From an uncultured Erysipelotrichaceae bacterium (GTDB taxonomy: Bacteria; Bacillota_I; Bacilli_A; Erysipelotrichales; Erysipelotrichaceae), in assembly GCA_942492995.1 (NCBI GenBank), contig OW818653.1:1410001-1442000 (forward strand): a DNA stretch of 32,000 bases, written 5' to 3'. A program made the position numbers and the translations under genes. The notes below the pieces were generated by a model. That model was not told the DNA's origin. It ran no database searches and worked only from the letters and a program-made list of their open reading frames with translations. Below are positions 2,907 through 11,921 of the stretch, piece after piece (position 1 is the stretch's first letter; the number at the start of each line of letters is the position of its first letter).

Positions 2907-2933
2907 AAACAAAAACCATCCAATAGGATGGTT
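2907..2933 (-). terminator. Weak rho-independent terminator at the end of the glutamate mutase/methylaspartase operon
   Basis: Inverted repeat AACCATCC (2914-2921) / GGATGGTT (2926-2933) with a 4-nt loop. On the minus strand it is followed by TTTGTTT. The stem overlaps the stop codon at 2932-2934. Confidence 0.4.
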
Positions 2934-3249
2934 AGAAATCAAATTCTAGATCAAGTAATGGCGCATGTTGTTGAGCACCATAGACATCGGTTTCACGAAT
3001 ATCACCACTGCACATTGGACGAATGATTGTTGCTTTAATCGCATGGGCAGGAATAAATTCAATAATATTTATTACATCTTCAACTTTTATTTGATACAAA
3101 CGTGCAATGAGTTCAGGGTTTATGCATTTGTGTTCACACATTAATCTAAATGTTTCATCATCCTTTAGGATAATATCGAAGGTAATTTCATAAGGTCCTG
3201 AATTCTTAGAACGTATGACTTTCGCCATATCAATTAGTTTACGTTTCAT
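2932..3249 (-). CDS. DUF4387 domain protein (AtuA C-terminal-like small subunit)
   Basis: The ORF-track entry runs 2932-3270. I prefer the ATG at 3249 (MKRKLIDMAKVIRSKNSGPYEITFDIILKD...) because GAGG sits 5 nt upstream, immediately after the TGA of the preceding gene. The VIRSKN(S/A)GP(Y/F)E.T.D motif is what I recognise from DUF4387. Confidence 0.7.
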   Translation of the reverse strand: MKRKLIDMAKVIRSKNSGPYEITFDIILKDDETFRLMCEHKCINPELIARLYQIKVEDVINIIEFIPAHAIKATIIRPMCSGDIRETDVYGAQQHAPLLDLEFDF

Positions 3250-3256
3250 TGGTGCC

Positions 3257-4609
3257 TCACAATTGTACAATCGTACGTTTAAACATACCGACAGGATCTG
3301 TCACTTCAATAAGATGATATAGGCTAAAATTATACACAGCTCCGACTTTGAAATCGGATGGTGAGTAAGGGAATGCTAGATTACCCGCTGTCGCAATACG
3401 TCCTTCATATCCATAATGTAACATCGTACTTCGCGCAAAACTACAGATGGTATTTGCGACTTCCTGAGTACTCGCTACCGCATCGATTACGATGCAGAGT
3501 TCATGTGAATGTATTTCTTTGATTGGTTCAAGTTCACCCATGACACCATTCTTACCATATACCTTAAAGTTTAAATGATAATCTTTTAAATCTTTGAAGT
3601 TATCTTTTACTCTTAATTCAACACCTTGAATTATTGAATCGATTTCTCGAATGAAGATTGGATCTCGTACTCCGGCAATACTAACGGTTCTAAACCCAAC
3701 ACATTTAGCTGCCTCAAGTTTAATCGTATAAGGATTGGATGGAATATATACACTACCTTTAACCTCAACTTGTTCATCGTTTAATTGAGTAAAAGTTGTA
3801 TTGTGTAGATCAATGGTTCCACCAGGACCTGGTAGAATATAAGGATTTGTTTTTTCGTAGAGTGTATGTGCACTAACACTTAATGTCGTACATTTACGGA
3901 TTGGATTAAGTGTTTGCAAGATAAATGAATCCTCTGTAATCGTTCCAAACATACAATCACTTCCACTACCTGGACTTGACGCAATTGCGGCACATTCCAA
4001 TATCTTTCCACAATGGAGTGCTAAACCTGGATCAAATCCTCTTAATATCGGAAGAGCTGCGAAAACGGTTGGGTCATAAGCACGACCCGCAATAATCACA
4101 TCTACATTTTCTTTAAGCGCTTCAATAAATGGTTCTACACCCATTTGACCTACAATATAAGTCGAGTCTTTAATATCATCTTTTGTACAAACTGGTGCTG
4201 GATGTAAAGGCTTTATCTTACCTTCATCAAATGCTTTATACAGTAATTCTTTGTCAATATCTGCTTCAATAATTGCCATTTTAAAATGTAGATTATTTTC
4301 TTTTGCGATTTCTTCCACAATCTTTACGGTCCAATCAAGATGTGGTTTTGCGCCACTACCTCCAGCTGTCCCAACAAGTACAGGAATATTGTGTTCAATA
4401 CCTGCTTGAATCATTATGCCTAAATCACGTTTAACGGCATAGTAATCGGTAAATGAAACGCCAGCTCCAAGATAATATGGTCCAGGATCTGTAGAACCAG
4501 CATCAACTGCGATACAATCTGGTTTAAGTTTCATCCCTGCTTCAAAACTAGACATCGGAAATCCATAACCAAGAATCGCAGTAGTGGATAGTATTTTTAC
4601 ACTTTTCAT
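3257..4609 (-). CDS. DUF1446 (AtuA-like, acyclic terpene utilisation family) protein
   Basis: 450 aa. N-terminal ...ILGYGF...PDCIAVDAGSTDPGPYYLGAG... is typical of DUF1446. The start ATG overlaps the methylaspartate ammonia-lyase stop by 4 nt (4606-4609). Confidence 0.8.
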   Translation of the reverse strand: MKSVKILSTTAILGYGFPMSSFEAGMKLKPDCIAVDAGSTDPGPYYLGAGVSFTDYYAVKRDLGIMIQAGIEHNIPVLVGTAGGSGAKPHLDWTVKIVEEIAKENNLHFKMAIIEADIDKELLYKAFDEGKIKPLHPAPVCTKDDIKDSTYIVGQMGVEPFIEALKENVDVIIAGRAYDPTVFAALPILRGFDPGLALHCGKILECAAIASSPGSGSDCMFGTITEDSFILQTLNPIRKCTTLSVSAHTLYEKTNPYILPGPGGTIDLHNTTFTQLNDEQVEVKGSVYIPSNPYTIKLEAAKCVGFRTVSIAGVRDPIFIREIDSIIQGVELRVKDNFKDLKDYHLNFKVYGKNGVMGELEPIKEIHSHELCIVIDAVASTQEVANTICSFARSTMLHYGYEGRIATAGNLAFPYSPSDFKVGAVYNFSLYHLIEVTDPVGMFKRTIVQL

Positions 4610-5856
4610 ACGTTTGCCTTTCGTGCAGTATCGAGTGCGATAATTCGTTGCATTTCATTGTATACAATCATGAATCCTTCATCGACGCCCATTCCAGGTT
4701 TCGCAAGAATTTGACATGGTTGCGTTGCCATCGCTAAATGTACACATGTTTTAGCACTTAAATCAGTCTCGTTACATGTACCACCTTGGTATGCCCCAAT
4801 TCCTTTTTCCTTACAATAAAGTACAGCTTCAACGGTATTCTGTATACCACCTAAATCAGGTGTTTTAATCTGTACCATATGACCAGCTTTCATATCCGCA
4901 AACTCCATAATATCTTCAAGCGTATTACACCATTCATCCGCAACTATCTCAACATCAATCTTTCTTTGATCGAGTTTTTCAGTGATTATTTTAAGGCCTA
5001 ACATCGTCTTTTCACGATTATCGAAATCAACTGGACCTTCAATTCTTAAATGATATGGTCCGCTTGCGACACGTAATGTTTCAAGATAATCGACCATCGC
5101 ATCATAATCTTCTTTAAAGATAATGCCTAATGTCCCATACACATCGATATGAAATACCGGATTATAGTCTTCTGAATTTTTATGTTCATCAATACGTTGT
5201 CTTAACCATTTAACATACTCAAGTAACTTCTCACCTTGATAACCAAGTTTACTTTCAACATGATTAATCAAACCATGCGGTAAAACAGCACTTCCTTTAA
5301 GTATCATTTTATCTACATTGTCATAGCGATTATCGCCACTTTGACTGAAAATAGGGATTAACTCATGACTTACTTCAGTATGATATTCTTCCGCAATGAT
5401 ATTTGCCATTTGGGTATGTTTCGATTTCGCAATCGCATCGAGTAATGCTTGAGTAATTCCATAACGTAGTGCCGTATGAATTCGTTTACCATCAAGTTCT
5501 AAATGATCAAATTCATGTGCCATTGATTTAAACGTAGTCATTTCACGATTTAATAAAAGTGGTTTAATTCTCTCTTGAACGATTTGTTTGAACTCTTCTG
5601 CTATAAACAATGGATCTCTTCCACCACAACCACTGTATTGAACAGCACAACAATCGCCCATTCCAACTTGTCCATCTTCAAGGATTAACATAATTGTTAA
5701 TGATTCGCCTGCTTGACGGATACGGTTAAAACCATCAGTTACAGGTTCTCCTATATAGAAGTTACCATCTGATTTAGCACCTTTTTTAATTGCTTTTTGG
5801 TCATCAAAAAAGAATCCTGTTCTTCCACAACTACTTACGACATCAATTATTTTCAT
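4606..5856 (-). CDS. mal: 3-methylaspartate ammonia-lyase (methylaspartase, enolase superfamily)
   Basis: 416 aa. [27 protein letters not shown]..., and [12 protein letters not shown] containing the catalytic-Lys motif known from the Clostridium tetanomorphum enzyme. 4-nt overlap with the end of glmE. Confidence 0.93.
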
Positions 5857-7310
5857 ATGTTCCCCTTATTAGGACGACCAACGAGTCTTCCTTTACTAAC
5901 TGCATAGATATCATCAATAACCATTTGGAAACTGACTTGTCTACGTTCAACTTCTGCACGTTCTTGTAGTTTCTTGCGATGGAGATCTTTCAATGATTCA
6001 TCAAATGGTAAATTACCAAATTCATAGATTCTTACTGCACCATGATTGTCTCTAGCCGGTAACATCTTTCCTGCATTACATACAGCTGGGGCGAATGGTA
6101 CATCAATTAGTCCTGCTTCAAATGCACGAACAGCAGATAAACCAAAGTTATTTTCACCTAATTTAAGGACTGCTTCTAAAATGCTCTTTGTTTCACGCGT
6201 GATAATGTTCATTTCATCGACGATTTCAGTTGTCTCAAACGCAACTTGATCCTTTAACATCGATGTTAATTGTTTAGTTGTTTTTAATCCATTTGCGTTC
6301 GCTTCGGCAGTTGGGACGCCAAATGCTTCATGTGGAGATTTTACGATTACTTTGGTTGCGCCAGATAAAACGGCTGTCGCAGCTCCCCAACTTATAACCG
6401 CATACGCTTTAGCTTCATCTTGTGGGAAACCACCCATCCATTGATGAAATACGGTAGATACTTTTACATCTTCATACCCAAAACGTTTTAGATATTCTTT
6501 TGTGAGTAAATCAAGTGTACGAATTGCGGCGATATCTTGGGTTTGATTGCCACATTGTCCATACCCTACGGTAATACATTTACACCCTTGTTCAGCGGCT
6601 AATAGACTTTCAAGAATCGCAACACTGTGTGAGATACATGCAGGTACAAGTGTTCCCGTCAATGGACCAAACGGTTCGCGATTAATGGTTACTCCGCGTT
6701 CTTCATAATATCCAATTAAACGATCGACATATTGCCAATCTGTTATTGTTTTCTCTAAAGAATAATTCTTTCCATAAGGAATGTTATAGGAGATTCCACC
6801 CCCTTCATACGATGTGAATCCACCTGCTAAAGTGATTTCTGCTAATAGACGAGCATCTGGAGTTCCATGTCTTACTTGTAGCGGTACATTCAAAGATGAC
6901 ACGATATTGCGACAAACATGAACCCCATGGTTAACTGCAGGAAACCCATTAAGCAATGATTTACCTGTTCTAACACTTTCATCAATACCGGTTTGTGCTT
7001 CAGTATATCGATTGTGTCGTGTATAACTATCGATGGTTGTTGGTAAAAGATCTGCTCCACCTTCATCTTGTAAGAACTTTAATAATTTTATGTGTTCATT
7101 TGGTAATGCGACACCAGCTCTTGGTTGAATCAATGTTTCTTTGTTTAGGATGGCTTGCGCTAAACGATGACTAAATCGTTTCTCATCACTAATTGATTTT
7201 TGATAAGTTATCGCTTCTTCAATATCAACATCTTTTCCTGTACTCCATTGTTTAAGTACTTCTTCTCTTTGTTTAAGAAATTCATCTAACGGAATTTTTT
7301 TATTATACAT
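5853..7310 (-). CDS. glmE: Glutamate mutase (methylaspartate mutase) epsilon/E subunit
   Basis: 485 aa, a TIM-barrel mutase E-chain-like sequence (…[10 protein letters not shown]…[15 protein letters not shown]…). It occupies the canonical position after glmL and before mal. 8-nt overlap with the end of glmL. Confidence 0.92.
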
Positions 7311-8661
7311 GATGAATACGCTCCATATTTCTCTTTAAGATTCGTAATACTGTGTCGGGATATTTGTTCGCTAATAAACCTAAACAGCTAATAATATAAC
7401 TTTTATCTAAGTAGAATTCACATTGATTAGGCAATAATATCTCTTTATGATTAGGTTGTGATAATGCATTATGTAGGATTGAATACGCATCTTCCGCATA
7501 GATTATCGGTCCACCAATCCCGATAAGTATTTTCACATCGCGACAATCCTTCCCCGTTTGATAATAACTGACACCCATTGGTGTATAACTGGTTTCAAGT
7601 CGTCCTACATGTCTTTCACATGCGATTTCTGTACACCAACTCGCAAGTAGTTTGTCGTATTTTGGATTTGGTACACAATGAACATTATGTTTAATTTCGT
7701 TTAGATATGTTTCTAATTCTGGATCATTGATTTTATCTTTCATTAATTCATATACATTCATTGAACTAAAACGTAACCCTAAATCACCTTCTACACTTCG
7801 TTTCTCTAATGGTTCTTGTAGTCCTTTATATCCAAACTCTTCATTTATAACCAATCGTTGATTCATACTATACACATCTGTTGTGGCACCACCGATATCA
7901 ATGGCCATTAAATCGCCTAGTCCACTCTCAGTTAATGTACCTTTGGATAAGAGCTTTAGAGCTTCCATAACACTTGATGGGGTAGGTAGTACAATATCAT
8001 CCACAAGTTCACTTAAACGTGATAACCCACGTGCTTTTATGATTGATTTTAGAAATAACTCACGTATCTTCTCTTTACACTCGTCTACTTCTAATACACC
8101 ATAGGTAGGCATTACATTTGCGCAAAGTATGCATTCAAATCCATTTTGTTCAAGTAATGTCTTGATCTCGTCTTGACATGATTTATTGCCTGCATAGATG
8201 ATTGGAAAGCGTGATTTTAGTTTAATTAACTGATTCGCATTAGTTCGAACACTGGTTTGGTTACCACCATCTGTTCCACCACTAAGTAATAAAATATCAC
8301 AATTCGAAGATTCTATGTGTTCCAGTTCAGATTGATTTAATTCAAACGAATACGATTGAATAACTTTAGCCCCAGCACTATAACACGCTAGACGAGCTGC
8401 TTTAAGGGTTAAATCCGGAACTAATCCAATCGCAATCATACGCAATCCACCTTTAGCAGAACTACACACTAATGTTTCATGAATTGTAATATGATCTAAA
8501 ACATCTTTCATTTTAGATTTTATCTTCTCTATCCCAATCGAAATATCTGTACTTGACGTTGTAAAATCACTCGCATGTGCAAGTATTTTCTCTTGATCTG
8601 TATCAACGATACAACCCTTTGTATAGGTTGATCCAACATCAAATAAACAGTAATTAGGCAT
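7303..8661 (-). CDS. glmL: Glutamate mutase accessory/reactivating protein GlmL (MutL), ASKHA-fold
   Basis: 452 aa. N-terminal [12 protein letters not shown] phosphate-1-like motif and a later DIGGATTDV motif. Located between glmS and glmE as in clostridial operons. Confidence 0.88.
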
Positions 8662-9079
8662 AGAACCCTTGCGCTAATAAATCATTCTTCAAATCTTCAA
8701 TGCCTTGGTTAATATCTGCACCAGGTGGATAAACACGATTAAAACCCATGCCCTTAAATAAATGTTCAACCTCAGTAAAATCAGATTTACCTACGACAAG
8801 GTTTCCACCAATATAGAGCAATATTTTATCCAATCCAGCTTCTTTACACATATCCCCCATACCGCGACAATCCAATTCACCATGTCCATAAAGACTTGAG
8901 ACAATGATAGCCTTTGCGTTAGTCTCAACCGCCGCATCAATAAACTCTTTTTGCGAAACCATAACTCCAAGGTTAATCACATTAAACCCAGCTTGATCAA
9001 ACGCATACGCAATAATACGATTCCCTACCGCATGAACATCTGCCCCAATTACACCAATTACGATATTAATTTTTTCCAC
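8654..9079 (-). CDS. glmS: Glutamate mutase sigma/S subunit (B12-binding)
   Basis: 141 aa. [17 protein letters not shown] carries the DxHxxG cobalamin-binding motif. The size is typical of GlmS/MutS. Confidence 0.93.
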
Positions 9080-9093
9080 TTCAAATGCGCTCC

Positions 9094-10014
9094 TTAATCC
9101 GCAAAATGATTTATTTTATGGATATCCTGAATGGTTTCTCCACTCACAATTCCAACTAATTCAAACGTACTCTTCTGAGGATCATAGACATATTCTTTGA
9201 GTAGTCTAAAGTGTTTAATTTGCCCTGTATGATTTACATGCGTTCGAGGTCCTGTACAATATTGATCAATGATTTCACCTATTTTGATGTGGGTTGAATC
9301 ATGATAACTTATTGTTAGATCCTGCTTAATATATGCCTTAACTTTCTTTTCTAATACCGATATTGAAACCTTAGGTTTCTTATTGAAGGATAATATGAAT
9401 CCATGTTTAACATCCCCATGACCATCACACACAATCCCGTAATCACTTTCTAATACATGAACCAATAAATCTTCTGCACTATGTGCCATTCTTCGATAAT
9501 TGATTGATTTATAAACCGTTGTTTTAATATCTTCTGGAACAGGTCCAAACAAATTCGGACGCGATACAATAACCTCTTCTCCTATTCCAATTAGCAAATC
9601 CGCATTTACTTTCAAGTATGGAAATAGATCATCAAAATGTTCAATAATGACTCTTTTCTTATTTAATACTGCAAGATTTACAGCTTCTACCAATAAATAC
9701 ATCTGCGTAAACGCTGTTTCAAAGCGTATATCAATATGGTAGGTATGTGATTTAAAATTCAATTGTCCATAATCACGCATAAGAGGTGAAGGACGACTGT
9801 TAATTCCATCATCATCATTGGTTAACTCTAATCCTGGAAACATACCTTTTATGAAAAGTGATTTTCCACTACCCGCATCCCCGATTAATCCAATTATCTT
9901 ATCGTTGGGTAATAGGTATTTCTGACTCACTTGATTCCCAAGATTTTGCATACGAACACTTCCTCTTGGGGCAAAGTATGTCGCATATCTAAATTGTTCG
10001 ATGCTTAAAGTCAT
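9094..10014 (-). CDS. Uncharacterised P-loop protein with a C-terminal AlaRS/ThrRS second-additional-domain-like segment
   Basis: 306 aa, first gene of the operon, with an AGGAG RBS at 10021-10025. Walker A GDAGSGKS at aa 45-52, and a possible Walker [10 protein letters not shown]. The C-terminal [20 protein letters not shown] resembles the C-x-x-x-H...TG-x-I-x-x-F motif of the tRNA_SAD domain, preceded by HGDVKH. Confidence 0.6.
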
Positions 10015-10030
10015 GTTTATCTCCTAATAA

Positions 10031-10062
10031 ACAAAAATGATGCGAGAAAAATCGCATCATTT
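10031..10062 (-). terminator. Strong intrinsic terminator/attenuator hairpin immediately upstream of the glutamate mutase operon RBS
   Basis: The minus strand reads AAATGATGCGA-TTTTTC-TCGCATCATTT followed by TTGTTTATT (11-bp stem at 10035-10045 / 10052-10062). It is about 125 nt downstream of the malic enzyme stop and about 9 nt upstream of the AGGAG of the 9094-10014 gene. Confidence 0.6.
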
Positions 10063-10185
10063 GCTTAGTTTATATTATGTCGTAAAATTGGTTCAGATTT
10101 TGTGTCATGAAGGATAAATTCATAGAATTATATTATTTCTATCTACTATAAGCATACACTATTTCACTTAAGTTTGCGTTTCAAA

Positions 10186-11362
10186 TTATGATTTTCGAAC
10201 ACATCCTGATGCGATTGCGACATCTTTTACAGCTTGACTAACGACATCCTTAACACGTTTATCAAATACACTTGGAATAATGTAATCTGGACTAAGTTCT
10301 TCTATTTGGATAAGACTTGATAGACCATATGCGGCAGCTTTTTTCATCTCTTCTGTGATTTGCGTTGCCTTTGCGTCCAGTGCGCCTCTAAACAAACCAG
10401 GGAATGCGAGCACATTATTGACTTGATTTGGATAATCACTTCGTCCTGTCGCAATGATATACGCTCCAGCTTCTTTCGCATCTTCATAACTTATTTCAGG
10501 TTCTGGATTCGCTAATGCGAATACAATGGAAAGTTTATTCATACTTTGAATCATCGCTTTACTAACAAGTTTAGGAGCAGATACACCAATAAACACATCC
10601 GCATTTAACATCGCTTCTTGAAGTGTAACATTAAGTTGATTTGGATTTGTAAATTCACTGAGTTCTTGAACTAAGAAATCGGTGTGTTCTTCTTTTCGAA
10701 TAATTCCTTCTTTTCTAAATCCTAAGATATTTACAACACCTAAATCTCTTAACATAAACATGATTGAACTACCGGCTGCGCCAGCACCACTTACCACAAC
10801 TTTTAATTCTTTGAGTTCTTTCTTAATTAATTTTAATGCGTTAATTAGTCCAGCCGCTACGACAATCGCTGTTCCGTGTTGATCGTCATGGAAAACTGGA
10901 ATACTTAAAGTACGTTTAAGTTCTCTTTCAATTTGTACACATCTAGGCGCAGAAATATCTTCTAGGTTGATCCCTCCAAAACTTGGAGCTAATGCCTTAC
11001 AGATGCGAATGATTTCATCTGGGTCTTTTGTGTCTAATGCGATTGGGACTGCGTCAATATCTGCGAACGATTTGAATAATGCACATTTACCTTCCATAAC
11101 AGGTAAGCTTGCATGAGGTCCTATATCACCTAAACCTAGCACAGCAGTTCCGTCAGTAATAACCGCAACGGTATTCCCTTTCCAGGTATAGTCATAGACG
11201 GATTCTGGATTACGATGGATTTCGCGACATGGTTCCGCAACACCTGGTGTATAGGCTAAGCTTAGTTCTTCTTTATTGGTAATTGGCGCATTTAATTCAA
11301 TACGTAATTTACCCTCGCCATGCTTTATGTGCGATGAGTGATTTTTGATAAATATCTGACAT
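10186..11362 (-). pseudogene. NAD(P)-dependent malic enzyme (short MaeA/YtsJ type) interrupted by a 1-nt frameshift near codon 14
   Basis: The ORF track reports only 10186-11142, starting at an internal GTG. The same frame is open up to 11376 and encodes ...HGEGKLRIELNAPITNKEELSLAYTPGVAEPCREIHRNPESVYDYTWKGNTVAVITDGTAVLGLGDIG, the conserved malic enzyme N-terminus, but has no ATG/GTG/TTG. An ATG at 11362, 1 nt after the upstream stop, encodes MSDIYQKSLIAHKAWRG* in the adjacent frame, with its stop at 11309-11311. Removing one nt around 11323-11326 gives MSDIYQKSLIAHKHGEGKL..., a normal malic enzyme start. Confidence 0.8.
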
Positions 11363-11363
11363 G

Positions 11364-11921
11364 TTAATCCAACTCTCTATATTTCGCTTGTTCAATTTCG
11401 TATAAGTTATTTCCATAGGCATCAATCACGACAATTGCGGGAAAATCTTTAACCCAAAAACGGTGAATTGCCTCAGGACCTAAGTCTTCATAACATAGGA
11501 TTTCACTTCCCATAATACTTTTCGAGATCATTGCGCCAAGTCCACCAATTGCCGCAAAGTAAACACATTGGTGCTTTTTCATCGCATTGATAACTTCAAC
11601 ACTTCGATTTCCTTTGCCTATCATTCCTTTTAAACCTTTTTCAATTAAGATTGGGGCATATTTATCCATACGATAACTTGATGTAGGTCCAGCTGAACCT
11701 ACCGCAACACCTGGTTTACTTGGAGCTGGTCCAACATAATAGATGACTTCTCCTTCTAGTTTGATAGGTAATTGTTGATGGTTTTTAATCGCATCAAATA
11801 ATCTTTGATGAGCCGCATCTCTTCCTGTAATCATCGTTCCTGATAATAAGACACTCTCACCAGCTTTTAGTGATAGAATCGTCTCATTATCTAAAGGTAA
11901 TTGTATTTTTCTTTCTTCCAT
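11364..11921 (-). CDS. Fe-S type (class I-like) fumarate hydratase/hydro-lyase, beta subunit; candidate mesaconase subunit
   Basis: 185 aa. ...LSGTMITGRDAAHQRL...YYVGPAPSKPG...GPTSSYRMD... is typical of the tartrate/fumarate-subfamily beta chain. Confidence 0.88.
   Translation of the reverse strand: MEERKIQLPLDNETILSLKAGESVLLSGTMITGRDAAHQRLFDAIKNHQQLPIKLEGEVIYYVGPAPSKPGVAVGSAGPTSSYRMDKYAPILIEKGLKGMIGKGNRSVEVINAMKKHQCVYFAAIGGLGAMISKSIMGSEILCYEDLGPEAIHRFWVKDFPAIVVIDAYGNNLYEIEQAKYRELD

What the first reader, a model, noticed from the sequence alone, without database searches (positions are those of the whole stretch)
9094..10014. First gene of the mutase operon fuses a P-loop NTPase to an AlaRS/ThrRS 'second additional domain'-like module
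The protein has Walker A GDAGSGKS (aa 45-52) and a plausible Walker B (RVIIEHFDD). Its C-terminal stretch HGDVKH...[20 protein letters not shown] resembles the Zn-binding HxxxH / CxxxH...TGxIxxF signature of the tRNA_SAD editing-type domain. The spacing here is altered (Hx4H, Cx5H).

A P-loop NTPase at the head of a B12-mutase operon recalls the G-protein chaperones (MeaB-type) of other adenosylcobalamin mutases. Glutamate mutase, however, is classically served by the ASKHA-fold GlmL, not by a P-loop protein. An amino-acid/aminoacyl-recognising fold joined to an NTPase could act as a substrate sensor, a cofactor-loading factor or a repair factor. I know of no characterised member.
Basis: partly seen in the sequence, partly recalled or inferred. 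Interest (0 to 1): 0.65.

Follow-up and report, generated by a model that had tools for sequence, protein, structure and literature searches.

The report
TsaE-AlaX fusion protein in glutamate-mutase operons
The first gene of this glutamate-fermentation operon encodes an unstudied protein that joins an ATPase of the tRNA-modification (TsaE) type to a remodelled tRNA-proofreading (AlaX) domain; it sits beside the vitamin-B12 glutamate mutase genes in many Bacillota species, so it is probably an overlooked helper of that classic pathway.

Summary
Window 9094-10014 (minus strand) encodes a 306-aa protein. Its N-terminal half is a TsaE/YjeE-like P-loop ATPase and its C-terminal half has the AlaX/AlaRS-editing (tRNA_SAD) fold. 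Both calls rest on weak Pfam hits just under the curated cut-offs and on Foldseek matches (probability 1.00).

One motif assignment needs correcting. The counterpart of the editing-domain HxxxH is H178-SAE-D182, not HGDVKH. HGDVKH lies on the strand that carries QKGS in E. coli AlaRS. C253-x5-H259 does correspond to CxxxH.

The family is compact, strongly conserved and almost confined to Bacillota. Of 80 species-level loci, 62 have glmS/glmL/glmE/mal within 10 kb and 70 have some methylaspartate-pathway gene. Nearly all are on the same strand, at a median distance of about 64 bp, in at least six different gene orders. The E. coli cluster has no such gene. I found no paper on it, and databases give only generic domain names.

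The function is inferred, not shown. My best guess is an ATP-driven maintenance or loading factor for glutamate mutase, perhaps docking on the actin-fold GlmL as TsaE docks on TsaBD. The main rival is a deacylase that protects tRNA from 3-methylaspartate.

The parts
9094..10014 (-). ORF X, 306 aa: TsaE-like ATPase fused to an AlaX-like domain
   Evidence: ORF list and sequence. 3094 homologues at E<=1e-3. AlphaFold model with pLDDT 84.
9541..10014 (-). N-terminal TsaE/YjeE-like P-loop ATPase domain (aa 1 to about 158)
   Evidence: Pfam TsaE E 1.1e-5 over aa 22-99. PDB sequence hit to TsaE 6n9a_E at E 0.008 over aa 36-175. Foldseek hits 1htw, 1fl9, 6nak_D, 6s84, 6n9a_E and 5np9, probability 1.00, TM 0.54-0.58 normalised to the target.
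9859..9882 (-). Walker A motif GDAGSGKS (aa 45-52)
   Evidence: Read from the sequence. G45, G48, G50, K51 and S52 are invariant.
9718..9741 (-). YHIDIRFE (aa 92-99), counterpart of the TsaE YHxDxYR / Walker-B strand
   Evidence: Aligned to TsaE 'yhldlyrl'. Y92, H93, D95, R97, F98 and E99 are invariant.
9634..9648 (-).
   Evidence: Aligned to T. maritima TsaE 'mvvew'. E125, H126 and F127 are invariant.
9115..9537 (-). C-terminal AlaX / AlaRS-editing-like (tRNA_SAD fold) domain (aa about 160-300)
   Evidence: Foldseek hits 9iuw (AlaX-M, E 5e-6), 1v7o (AlaX-S, TM 0.61 normalised to the target), 2zze/2zzg, 3kew and 1qf6, probability 1.00. hhalign to the E. coli AlaRS editing domain: 98 columns, 31% identity.
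9469..9483 (-). H178-S-A-E-D182: the true counterpart of the editing-domain HxxxH motif, here HxxxD
   Evidence: Aligned to E. coli AlaRS H564-SAT-H568. H178, E181 and D182 are invariant.
9403..9420 (-). HGDVKH (aa 199-204): family-specific His/Asp motif on the strand that carries QKGS in AlaRS
   Evidence: H199-G-D201 aligns with K585-G-S587 of E. coli AlaRS. H199, D201 and V202 are invariant and H204 nearly so.
9199..9258 (-). CTGPRTH + [13 protein letters not shown] (aa 253-272): counterpart of CGGTH...TGDIGLFRI, with a 2-residue (PR) insertion, so Cx5H
   Evidence: Pfam tRNA_SAD over aa 244-274. BLASTP and hhalign to E. coli AlaRS C666-H670. C253, T254, G255, R257 and H259 are invariant.
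10035..10062 (-). Terminator-like hairpin plus T-run immediately upstream of the ribosome-binding site of X
   Evidence: Consensus scan. The position is conserved with a different stem sequence in 7 related loci.
8654..9079 (-). glmS (B12-binding subunit S), starting 14 nt after the stop of X
   Evidence: ORF list. Next to X in Erysipelotrichales loci.
7303..8661 (-). glmL/mutL (actin-fold accessory ATPase)
   Evidence: Pfam MutL E 1e-141.
5853..7310 (-). glmE (catalytic subunit E)
   Evidence: ORF list. The E. coli homologue is annotated methylaspartate mutase subunit E.
4606..5856 (-). mal (3-methylaspartate ammonia-lyase)
   Evidence: Pfam MAAL_N and MAAL_C.
2932..4609 (-). AtuA-like (DUF1446) and DUF4387 pair that closes the operon
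   Evidence: Pfam PF07287 and PF14330. Found in 34 loci and never together with citDEF.

Best explanation
SHOWN. X is a two-domain protein. The N-terminal domain is a TsaE-type P-loop ATPase that keeps all its nucleotide-site residues (K51, S52, D95, E125). The C-terminal domain has the AlaX/AlaRS-editing fold. Every classical editing-site position in it is occupied by an invariant residue except the Q584 position, but the chemistry is more acidic and His-rich: H178, E181, D182, D201, C253 and H259, plus H199, H204, R174 and R257. X is a conserved same-strand neighbour of the glutamate mutase and methylaspartase genes in Bacillota.

INFERRED. X is a non-catalytic, ATP-dependent accessory of the glutamate mutase step, acting in cofactor loading, repair or gating. 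In the proposed mechanism the TsaE-like domain acts as a partner-activated ATPase switch. It docks on the actin-fold (ASKHA) protein GlmL, just as TsaE docks on the ASKHA pair TsaB-TsaD. The repurposed editing domain originally bound an aminoacyl-adenosine. Here it would bind a small ligand (glutamate, 3-methylaspartate, or the adenosyl part of the cofactor), probably through a His/Asp/Cys/His metal site. That binding would couple the ligand state to the ATPase cycle.
For: Domain calls.

Conservation of ATPase and pocket residues.

Synteny:
- 62 of 80 loci have glmS/L/E or mal within 10 kb and 70 of 80 have some pathway gene.
- 349 of 351 of those genes are on the same strand as X.
- The median distance to the nearest pathway gene is 63.5 bp.
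- Adjacency survives at least six different gene orders across Erysipelotrichales, Clostridia, Negativicutes, Lachnospiraceae and Peptococcaceae.

In five Oscillospiraceae loci X is followed directly by a CobA/CobO-type corrinoid adenosyltransferase, which suggests a cofactor-handling module.

Glutamate mutase works without X elsewhere. The E. coli cluster has glmS-glmL-glmE-mal-AtuA-DUF4387...cobO and no X homologue. That fits an accessory role rather than a catalytic one.

GlmL/MutL and the TsaD family (Peptidase_M22) both belong to the actin/ASKHA superfamily (PMC5597319). Glutamate mutase is grouped with the AdoCbl enzymes that use ATP-dependent reactivases (PMC10356863). From established knowledge, TsaE is an ATPase activated by binding the TsaBD dimer (structures 6N9A and 6S84, both hit).
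Against: There is no direct evidence of an X-GlmL contact, and I could not run a complex prediction.

Two clusters (L049, L056) have glmS-glmE-mal and X but no glmL within 10 kb.

Five loci with full flanks (L060, L064, L066, L068, L079) carry an intact X with no pathway gene within 10 kb.

In some loci X sits next to mesaconase genes and not next to glm genes (L032, L048). The linkage is therefore to the pathway and not strictly to the mutase.

The AlaX fold has no known role in cobalamin handling.

No natural fusion of X to any glm protein was found.
Confidence: 0.35

Rival explanations
1. Pathway-coupled translational proofreading. The AlaX-like domain is still an aminoacyl-tRNA deacylase, now specific for tRNA mischarged with the pathway intermediate (2S,3S)-3-methylaspartate, for example on tRNA-Asp, or for another aminoacyl ester. 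It would protect translation while the cell makes large amounts of this non-protein amino acid. The ATPase domain would regulate or recycle it.
For: The C-terminal fold and the C...H/TGxI..F motif are those of trans-editing AlaX proteins, and the minimal AlaX-S is the best-fitting structure (TM 0.61).

Every editing-site position is occupied by an invariant residue, apart from the Q584 position, which points to a live pocket.

Both domains descend from tRNA-centred machineries.

X tracks the methylaspartate-forming and methylaspartate-consuming core (glmS, glmE, mal) and not glmL, citDEF or AtuA.
Against: The canonical HxxxH is lost and CxxxH is stretched to Cx5H.

The pocket gains three acidic residues (E181, D182, D201). 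That is awkward for an acidic aminoacyl group unless a metal bridges it.

The family is acidic: mean pI 6.0, with a typical C-domain net charge of about -5. This is weak evidence, because AlaX-S itself has pI 6.9.

The tRNA and RNase PH neighbours are a locus effect, and no tRNA-Asp or tRNA-Glu gene is nearby.

TsaE does not itself bind tRNA (established knowledge).

I found no literature on 3-methylaspartate mischarging.

E. coli and other organisms that carry the pathway manage without X.
Confidence: 0.2
2. Regulatory sensor or protein kinase. The TsaE-family domain acts as a UbK/YdiB-like protein kinase or ATP switch that modifies or gates a pathway enzyme. The AlaX-like domain would sense the amino-acid level (glutamate or methylaspartate).
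For: B. subtilis YdiB (5np9), which from my own knowledge has been described as a 'ubiquitous bacterial kinase', is among the structural matches.

The editing-domain pocket is an amino-acid-recognising site.

X lies at module boundaries of the operon, as accessory or regulatory genes often do.
Against: Many clusters already carry a GntR-type regulator (23 loci).

Very high sequence conservation over the whole surface (55% identity between classes) is more typical of a stoichiometric partner than of a sensor.

No kinase target is evident.
Confidence: 0.12
3. A catalytic enzyme of the pathway acting on a small molecule. Examples would be an ATP-dependent kinase or ligase, or a metal hydrolase, acting on mesaconate, citramalate or an ester or amide of them.
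For: The conserved His/Asp/Cys cluster looks like a metal hydrolase site, and the P-loop could phosphorylate a substrate.

X sits directly before mesAB or citD in many loci.
Against: The classical pathway (mutase, methylaspartase, mesaconase, citramalate lyase) has no missing ATP-dependent step.

X occurs both with citDEF-type and with AtuA/DUF4387-type clusters, and the E. coli cluster lacks it.

TsaE-type ATPases are not known as small-molecule kinases.
Confidence: 0.08
4. A MeaB/ArgK-type G-protein chaperone homologue.
For: It is a P-loop NTPase encoded next to an AdoCbl mutase.
Against: No Pfam hit to the MeaB/ArgK family appears even at E<=10. The best P-loop matches by sequence and by fold are all TsaE/YjeE. 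The sequence has no NKxD guanine-specificity motif (read).
Confidence: 0.02

Closest known systems
TsaE / YjeE (ATPase of the bacterial t6A tRNA-modification complex TsaBDE; Pfam PF02367)
   Same: The fold matches (Foldseek probability 1.00 to 1htw, 6nak_D, 6s84 and 5np9). X has the Walker A motif GxxGxGK[ST], an SPTF-like segment (SRPSPL), a YHxDxYR-like strand (YHIDIRFE) and a ..EW-like strand (IIEHF).
   Different: X scores below the Pfam cut-off and far below the NCBIfam equivalog cut-off (24.6 against 60.1 bits). It carries a 150-aa C-terminal domain. It also has a unique invariant [14 protein letters not shown] segment and an N-terminal YFAPRG motif. It is encoded in a catabolic operon and not with tsaB/tsaD.
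AlaX trans-editing proteins and the AlaRS/ThrRS editing domain (Pfam tRNA_SAD PF07973)
   Same: The fold matches (9iuw, 1v7o, 2zze, 3kew, 1qf6). The first His of HxxxH is kept, as are the Cys and His of CxxxH and the T-G-x-I-x-x-F-[RK]-[IL] segment.
   Different: X has HxxxD in place of HxxxH and Cx5H in place of CxxxH. T567 becomes Glu and S587 becomes Asp. X has extra invariant H199, H204, R174 and R257. The roughly 25-residue insertion between beta3 and beta4 is missing. The protein is acidic and fused to an ATPase. There is no evidence of tRNA binding.
MeaB/MMAA/ArgK G-protein chaperones of methylmalonyl-CoA mutase and relatives
   Same: Both are P-loop NTPases encoded beside an adenosylcobalamin-dependent carbon-skeleton mutase. 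In some loci X also lies next to an adenosyltransferase.
   Different: They belong to different P-loop classes: X is a TsaE-like ATPase and MeaB is a SIMIBI GTPase. X shows no sequence or fold match to MeaB and has no NKxD motif.
ATP-dependent reactivases of AdoCbl enzymes (GlmL/MutL, DdrAB, GdrAB, EutA)
   Same: X is co-encoded with the mutase, and the presumed ATP-driven maintenance role is similar.
   Different: The reactivases are actin-fold (ASKHA) ATPases and X is not. X accompanies GlmL and does not replace it.

Membership tests
TsaE/YjeE (PF02367, TIGR00150) | Scores above the curated family cut-off | tested here: not met
   Pfam gives 25.9 bits against a cut-off of 26.6, which is borderline. 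NCBIfam TIGR00150 gives 24.6 against 60.1. A few close homologues carry a precomputed PF02367 hit, and 11 of 28 members hit at E<=0.01.
TsaE/YjeE (PF02367, TIGR00150) | TsaE-type P-loop fold with Walker A, a Walker-B Asp and the conserved Glu strand | tested here: met
   Foldseek probability 1.00 to six TsaE/YjeE/YdiB structures. K51, S52, D95 and E125 are invariant and align with TsaE.
TsaE/YjeE (PF02367, TIGR00150) | Works with TsaB-TsaD in t6A synthesis; about 150-aa single-domain protein | tested here: not met
   X is a 306-aa two-domain protein, and no tsaB or tsaD is in the neighbourhood clusters. The biochemical partnership cannot be tested here.
AlaX / AlaRS-ThrRS editing domain (tRNA_SAD, PF07973) | Scores above the Pfam gathering cut-off | tested here: not met
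   20.9 bits against 24 (E 3.5e-4) over aa 244-274. 14 of 28 members hit at E<=0.01.
AlaX / AlaRS-ThrRS editing domain (tRNA_SAD, PF07973) | Editing-domain alpha/beta fold | tested here: met
   Foldseek hits 9iuw at E 5e-6, 1v7o at TM 0.61 (normalised to the target), 2zze, 3kew and 1qf6, all at probability 1.00.
AlaX / AlaRS-ThrRS editing domain (tRNA_SAD, PF07973) | Zn-binding HxxxH motif | tested here: not met
   X has H178-SAE-D182 (HxxxD) in the alignment to E. coli AlaRS. The alternative register against AlaX-S gives RxxxH.
AlaX / AlaRS-ThrRS editing domain (tRNA_SAD, PF07973) | CxxxH motif followed by TGxIG | tested here: inconclusive
   The Cys and His are invariant, but the spacing is Cx5H because of a PR insertion. 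TGQIK stands in place of TGDIG.
AlaX / AlaRS-ThrRS editing domain (tRNA_SAD, PF07973) | Hydrolyses mischarged aminoacyl-tRNA | not testable with these tools
   This needs deacylation assays.
MeaB/ArgK G-protein chaperones | SIMIBI GTPase fold with an NKxD motif; Pfam PF03308 | tested here: not met
   No such Pfam hit at E<=10. No such structure among the significant Foldseek matches. The sequence has no NKxD.
Methylaspartate-pathway (glutamate mutase) gene cluster component | Conserved same-strand adjacency to glmS/glmE/mal across lineages | tested here: met
   62 of 80 loci, and 41 of the 49 with at least 5 kb on both sides. 349 of 351 genes are on the same strand, at a median gap of 63.5 bp, in at least six gene orders.
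Methylaspartate-pathway (glutamate mutase) gene cluster component | Present wherever the pathway is present | tested here: not met
   The E. coli cluster lacks X. The figure legends of Kronen & Berg 2015 list the cluster genes without it. A full phyletic profile was not run.

The most novel reading that the evidence does not exclude
X is a dedicated proofreading factor encoded by a catabolic operon. On this reading it is an ATP-controlled AlaX-derived deacylase that removes the pathway's own intermediate, 3-methylaspartate, from mischarged tRNA. That would be a first case of a metabolic pathway carrying its own guard of translational fidelity.
Probability: 0.15. Interest if true: 0.85.

Novelty: new variant of a known kind. 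Interest (0 to 1): 0.6.

Why it matters
Glutamate mutase is one of the founding model enzymes of coenzyme-B12 radical chemistry. How its cofactor is loaded, protected and repaired in the cell is still poorly defined, and even GlmL has little biochemistry behind it.

X is a strongly conserved and so far ignored gene that travels with glmS/glmE/mal in at least 520 species genomes. It is an obvious candidate for the missing part of that maintenance system. It would also be a new class of B12-enzyme accessory, unrelated to the MeaB G proteins and to the actin-fold reactivases.

Whatever the function turns out to be, the protein shows two tRNA-machinery modules, TsaE and an AlaRS editing domain, reused together in amino-acid catabolism. 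This is directly testable with purified proteins.

It also bears on attempts to run glutamate mutase in engineered pathways, where in-vivo activity is limiting.

Tried and rejected
- A profile of the family searched against PDB sequences found only generic ABC-type Walker A matches, with no AlaX or TsaE. The relationship shows up only with single-sequence phmmer for TsaE, with Pfam, and by fold.
- The search for AlaX-S homologues listed only near-identical Thermococcales proteins and gave no useful profile. I took the real E. coli alaS sequence from an annotated genome instead.
- In the representative search, P0150 (2448 aa, 18 stretches) is a repeat protein and a spurious hit. P0196 looks like a chimera. 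No alternative architectures of the family were found.
- The 314-aa hypothetical protein upstream of E. coli glmS has the right size but is not a homologue.
- The RNase PH, RdgB and tRNA-array neighbours looked at first like a tRNA link. They are a conserved chromosomal location of the whole cluster, with no tRNA-Asp or tRNA-Glu present.
- Rfam found nothing in the window.
- I rejected the idea that X replaces the corrinoid adenosyltransferase, because X and CobA occur side by side.
- The old database name 'lantibiotic ABC transporter' rests on the Walker A motif alone.
Full report
WHAT IS THERE

The finding's coordinates hold one ORF on the minus strand (10014 down to 9094, 306 aa). It has a good ribosome-binding site. 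Downstream on the same strand, tightly packed, lie:
- glmS, which starts 14 nt after the stop of X;
- glmL/mutL (Pfam MutL, E 1e-141);
- glmE;
- methylaspartate ammonia-lyase;
- an AtuA-like (DUF1446) gene;
- a DUF4387 gene.

Upstream on the same strand are the two subunits of a class I fumarase (the presumed mesaconase) and a malic-enzyme gene.

DOMAIN CALLS

Pfam gives two sub-threshold but specific hits:
- TsaE: E 1.1e-5, 25.9 bits against a cut-off of 26.6, aa 22-99.
- tRNA_SAD: E 3.5e-4, 20.9 bits against 24, aa 244-274.

NCBIfam gives the TsaE equivalog far below its cut-off. Across 28 family members, 11 hit TsaE and 14 hit tRNA_SAD at E<=0.01. phmmer against PDB sequences finds T. maritima TsaE (E 0.008). 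The alignment runs through the Walker A motif, an SPTF-like segment, the YHxDxYR-like strand (YHIDIRFE) and the ..VEW-like strand (IIEHF).

An AlphaFold2 model built on a 28-sequence alignment has mean pLDDT 84. Foldseek against the PDB returns two groups of matches, all at probability 1.00:
- AlaX-M, AlaX-S, AlaRS editing domains, a Clostridium AlaX-like protein and ThrRS;
- six TsaE/YjeE/YdiB structures.

TM-scores normalised to the small targets are 0.54-0.61. Both domain calls are therefore supported. The P-loop half is specifically TsaE-like, not MeaB-like.

MOTIF MAPPING

I took the real E. coli alaS sequence from an annotated genome and aligned the family profile to its editing domain. 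The alignment covers 98 columns at 31% identity.

The known E. coli editing-site positions are H564, T567, H568, Q584, S587, C666 and H670. Their positions were checked; their functional role is from my own knowledge of the AlaRS literature. They align with X residues H178, E181, D182, G198, D201, C253 and H259. All of these except G198 are invariant in the family.

This gives three results:
- The HxxxH motif corresponds to H178-SAE-D182, that is HxxxD.
- C253-x5-H259 is the CxxxH motif with a Pro-Arg insertion.

A weaker alignment to AlaX-S shifts the helix by one turn, giving R174/H178. I could not superpose coordinates to settle this. In either register the canonical HxxxH is absent.

The pocket is clearly conserved but its chemistry has changed. 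It has three extra acidic residues, two extra histidines and two invariant arginines (R174, R257).

THE FAMILY

The word-indexed search found 3094 homologues. NCBI names them 'alanine-tRNA synthetase second additional domain-containing protein'. Older records say 'lantibiotic ABC transporter', and JGI says TsaE.

The exhaustive search of 1.84 billion representatives found only 264 clusters at E<=0.001. Most are fragments, and none has a different architecture. This is one compact orthologous group.

Conservation is high. Erysipelotrichia and Clostridia/Negativicutes share about 55% identity, and about 80 positions are invariant. A scan of one genome per species found at least 520 genomes with the gene, essentially all Bacillota.

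SYNTENY

I searched the 80 returned loci by tblastn with the window's pathway proteins.
- 62 loci have glmS, glmL, glmE or mal within 10 kb.
- 70 loci have some methylaspartate-pathway gene.
- Among the 49 loci with at least 5 kb on both sides, the counts are 41 and 44.
- 349 of 351 such genes are on the strand of X.
- The median gap to the nearest pathway gene is 63.5 bp.

ORF clustering and Pfam annotation of the neighbours show that adjacency survives repeated rearrangement:
- mesAB-ME-X-glmSLE-mal-AtuA-DUF4387 (Erysipelotrichales);
- gntR-glmSLE-mal-AtuA-DUF4387-X (many Clostridia);
- gntR-glmSLE-mal-X-citDEFC-...-mesAB (Sporomusa, Pelosinus);
- citDEF-glmSLE-mal-X-mesAB (Blautia);
- ...DUF4387-X-rph-rdgB (Peptococcaceae and relatives);
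- X-mesAB-gntR-glmSLE-mal-cit;
- ...DUF4387-X-cobA in five Oscillospiraceae loci.

This is strong evidence of functional coupling to the pathway.

There are limits.
- Five full-length loci have an intact X with no pathway gene within 10 kb.
- Two clusters lack glmL.
- The enterobacterial cluster has no X at all.
- The figure legends of Kronen & Berg (PMC4682846) name the genes of these clusters, including that of Blautia hansenii, without this one.
- No paper I could search connects TsaE, AlaX or the SAD domain with glutamate mutase.

HOW IT MOST LIKELY WORKS

The architecture, the conserved nucleotide site, the conserved but remodelled editing pocket and the pathway linkage are shown. The rest is inferred.

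Recombinant glutamate mutase is active without X (from my own knowledge), and E. coli lacks X. X is therefore an accessory and not a catalytic subunit.

TsaE-type ATPases are known only as partner-activated switches that dock on the ASKHA-fold pair TsaB-TsaD. GlmL is an ASKHA protein of the same superfamily, and glutamate mutase is counted among the AdoCbl enzymes served by ATP-dependent reactivases. Occasional adjacency to a CobA-type adenosyltransferase points the same way.

My preferred model (about 35%) has three parts:
- X is an ATP-driven maintenance or loading factor of the mutase.
- Its TsaE-like domain works on GlmL or on GlmS/E.
- Its editing-derived domain binds an amino-acid or adenosyl ligand through a His/Asp/Cys/His site.

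The most interesting rival (about 20%) is that the AlaX-like domain still deacylates tRNA, now tRNA mischarged with 3-methylaspartate. X tracks the enzymes that make and consume that compound and not any particular accessory gene. Against this stand the altered catalytic motifs, the acidic pocket and acidic protein, the absence of any specific tRNA link, and the absence of X from other organisms that have the pathway.

A regulatory sensor or kinase role and a small-molecule enzymatic role are less likely. Literal homology to MeaB is excluded.

COMPARISON AND NOVELTY

X works like an accessory NTPase of a B12 mutase, but it fails the membership tests for MeaB/ArgK. It has the folds of TsaE and of AlaX. 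It fails the curated cut-offs of both families, and it lacks the defining HxxxH/CxxxH spacing of the editing domain. It should therefore not be filed as a TsaE or as an AlaX.

Databases already flag each domain separately. The combination, the corrected active-site mapping and the pathway linkage appear undescribed. I rate it a new variant of a known kind, with interest 0.6.

SIDE OBSERVATIONS

- The AtuA-like/DUF4387 pair and citDEF are mutually exclusive in these clusters: 34 loci against 18, and none with both. Kronen & Berg could not find citramalate lyase activity in E. coli. The pair may therefore replace the citramalate-cleaving step.
- The malic-enzyme gene upstream of X is broken into three frames in this window.
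- The hairpin before X is conserved in position, with a different stem sequence, in related genomes and is preceded by short ORFs.

Noticed in passing
window 2932-4609 (minus); loci L001-L080; L081:11263-12947: The AtuA-like (DUF1446, PF07287) and DUF4387 gene pair follows mal in 34 loci and in E. coli. citDEF (citramalate-lyase-like) occurs in 18 loci, and the two are never found together. Kronen & Berg 2015 found no citramalate lyase activity in E. coli, so this pair may be a non-orthologous replacement for the citramalate-cleaving step of the methylaspartate pathway.
   Followed up: partly
window 10186-11425 (minus): The malic-enzyme gene between mesB and X appears disrupted. Its N-terminus (MSDIYQKSLIAHKAWRG*) is in ORF 11309-11425, a middle piece is in another frame (11136-11243), and the main ORF (10186-11142) starts at about residue 94 of intact homologues such as L012:1227-2447. 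It is either a pseudogene or a sequencing error.
   Followed up: partly
window 10015-10185 (minus), hairpin 10035-10062: A terminator-like hairpin plus T-run lies immediately before the ribosome-binding site of X. Its position is conserved in seven related Erysipelotrichales loci while the stem sequence differs, and short ORFs of 10-17 codons precede it. It could be a leader or attenuator of the glm operon, or simply the terminator of the upstream unit. There is no Rfam match.
   Followed up: partly
L021, L026, L027, L036, L040, L041, L055, L056, L059, L061-L064, L066, L068, L071 (downstream or upstream of the cluster): The unit rph (RNase PH) - rdgB (Ham1) - metallophosphoesterase - tRNA array (Pro, Gly, Arg, His, Gln, Lys, Leu) is a conserved chromosomal neighbour of the whole glutamate-fermentation cluster in Peptococcaceae-like and Negativicutes genomes. 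In L064, L066 and L068 only X remains next to it. This looks like a locus effect or insertion hot-spot and not a functional tRNA link.
   Followed up: yes
L056:4952-5956, L021:6229-8072, L059, L071, L026, L041: In Peptococcaceae-type clusters an HgdD-like (2-hydroxyglutaryl-CoA dehydratase D component) gene and a BcrAD/BadFG-type activator ATPase are inserted between mal and the AtuA-like gene. In two loci a metallo-beta-lactamase-fold gene is there as well. This is an unusual mix of the two classical glutamate fermentation routes.
   Followed up: no
P0127, P0137 (divergent family members, 37-43% identity): A divergent branch of the family has lost the Walker-B-like D95/R97. In P0137 it has also lost the His/Cys pocket residues (CERAGEIG in place of CTGPRxH...TGxI). 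These look like degenerate, probably non-catalytic paralogues. Their genomic context is unknown.
   Followed up: no
L081:4722-6169 (E. coli NZ_CP148331.1): Two hypothetical proteins (314 and 140 aa) with no Pfam family lie just upstream of glmS in the E. coli cluster, in the position X holds in the window. They are not homologous to X.
   Followed up: partly
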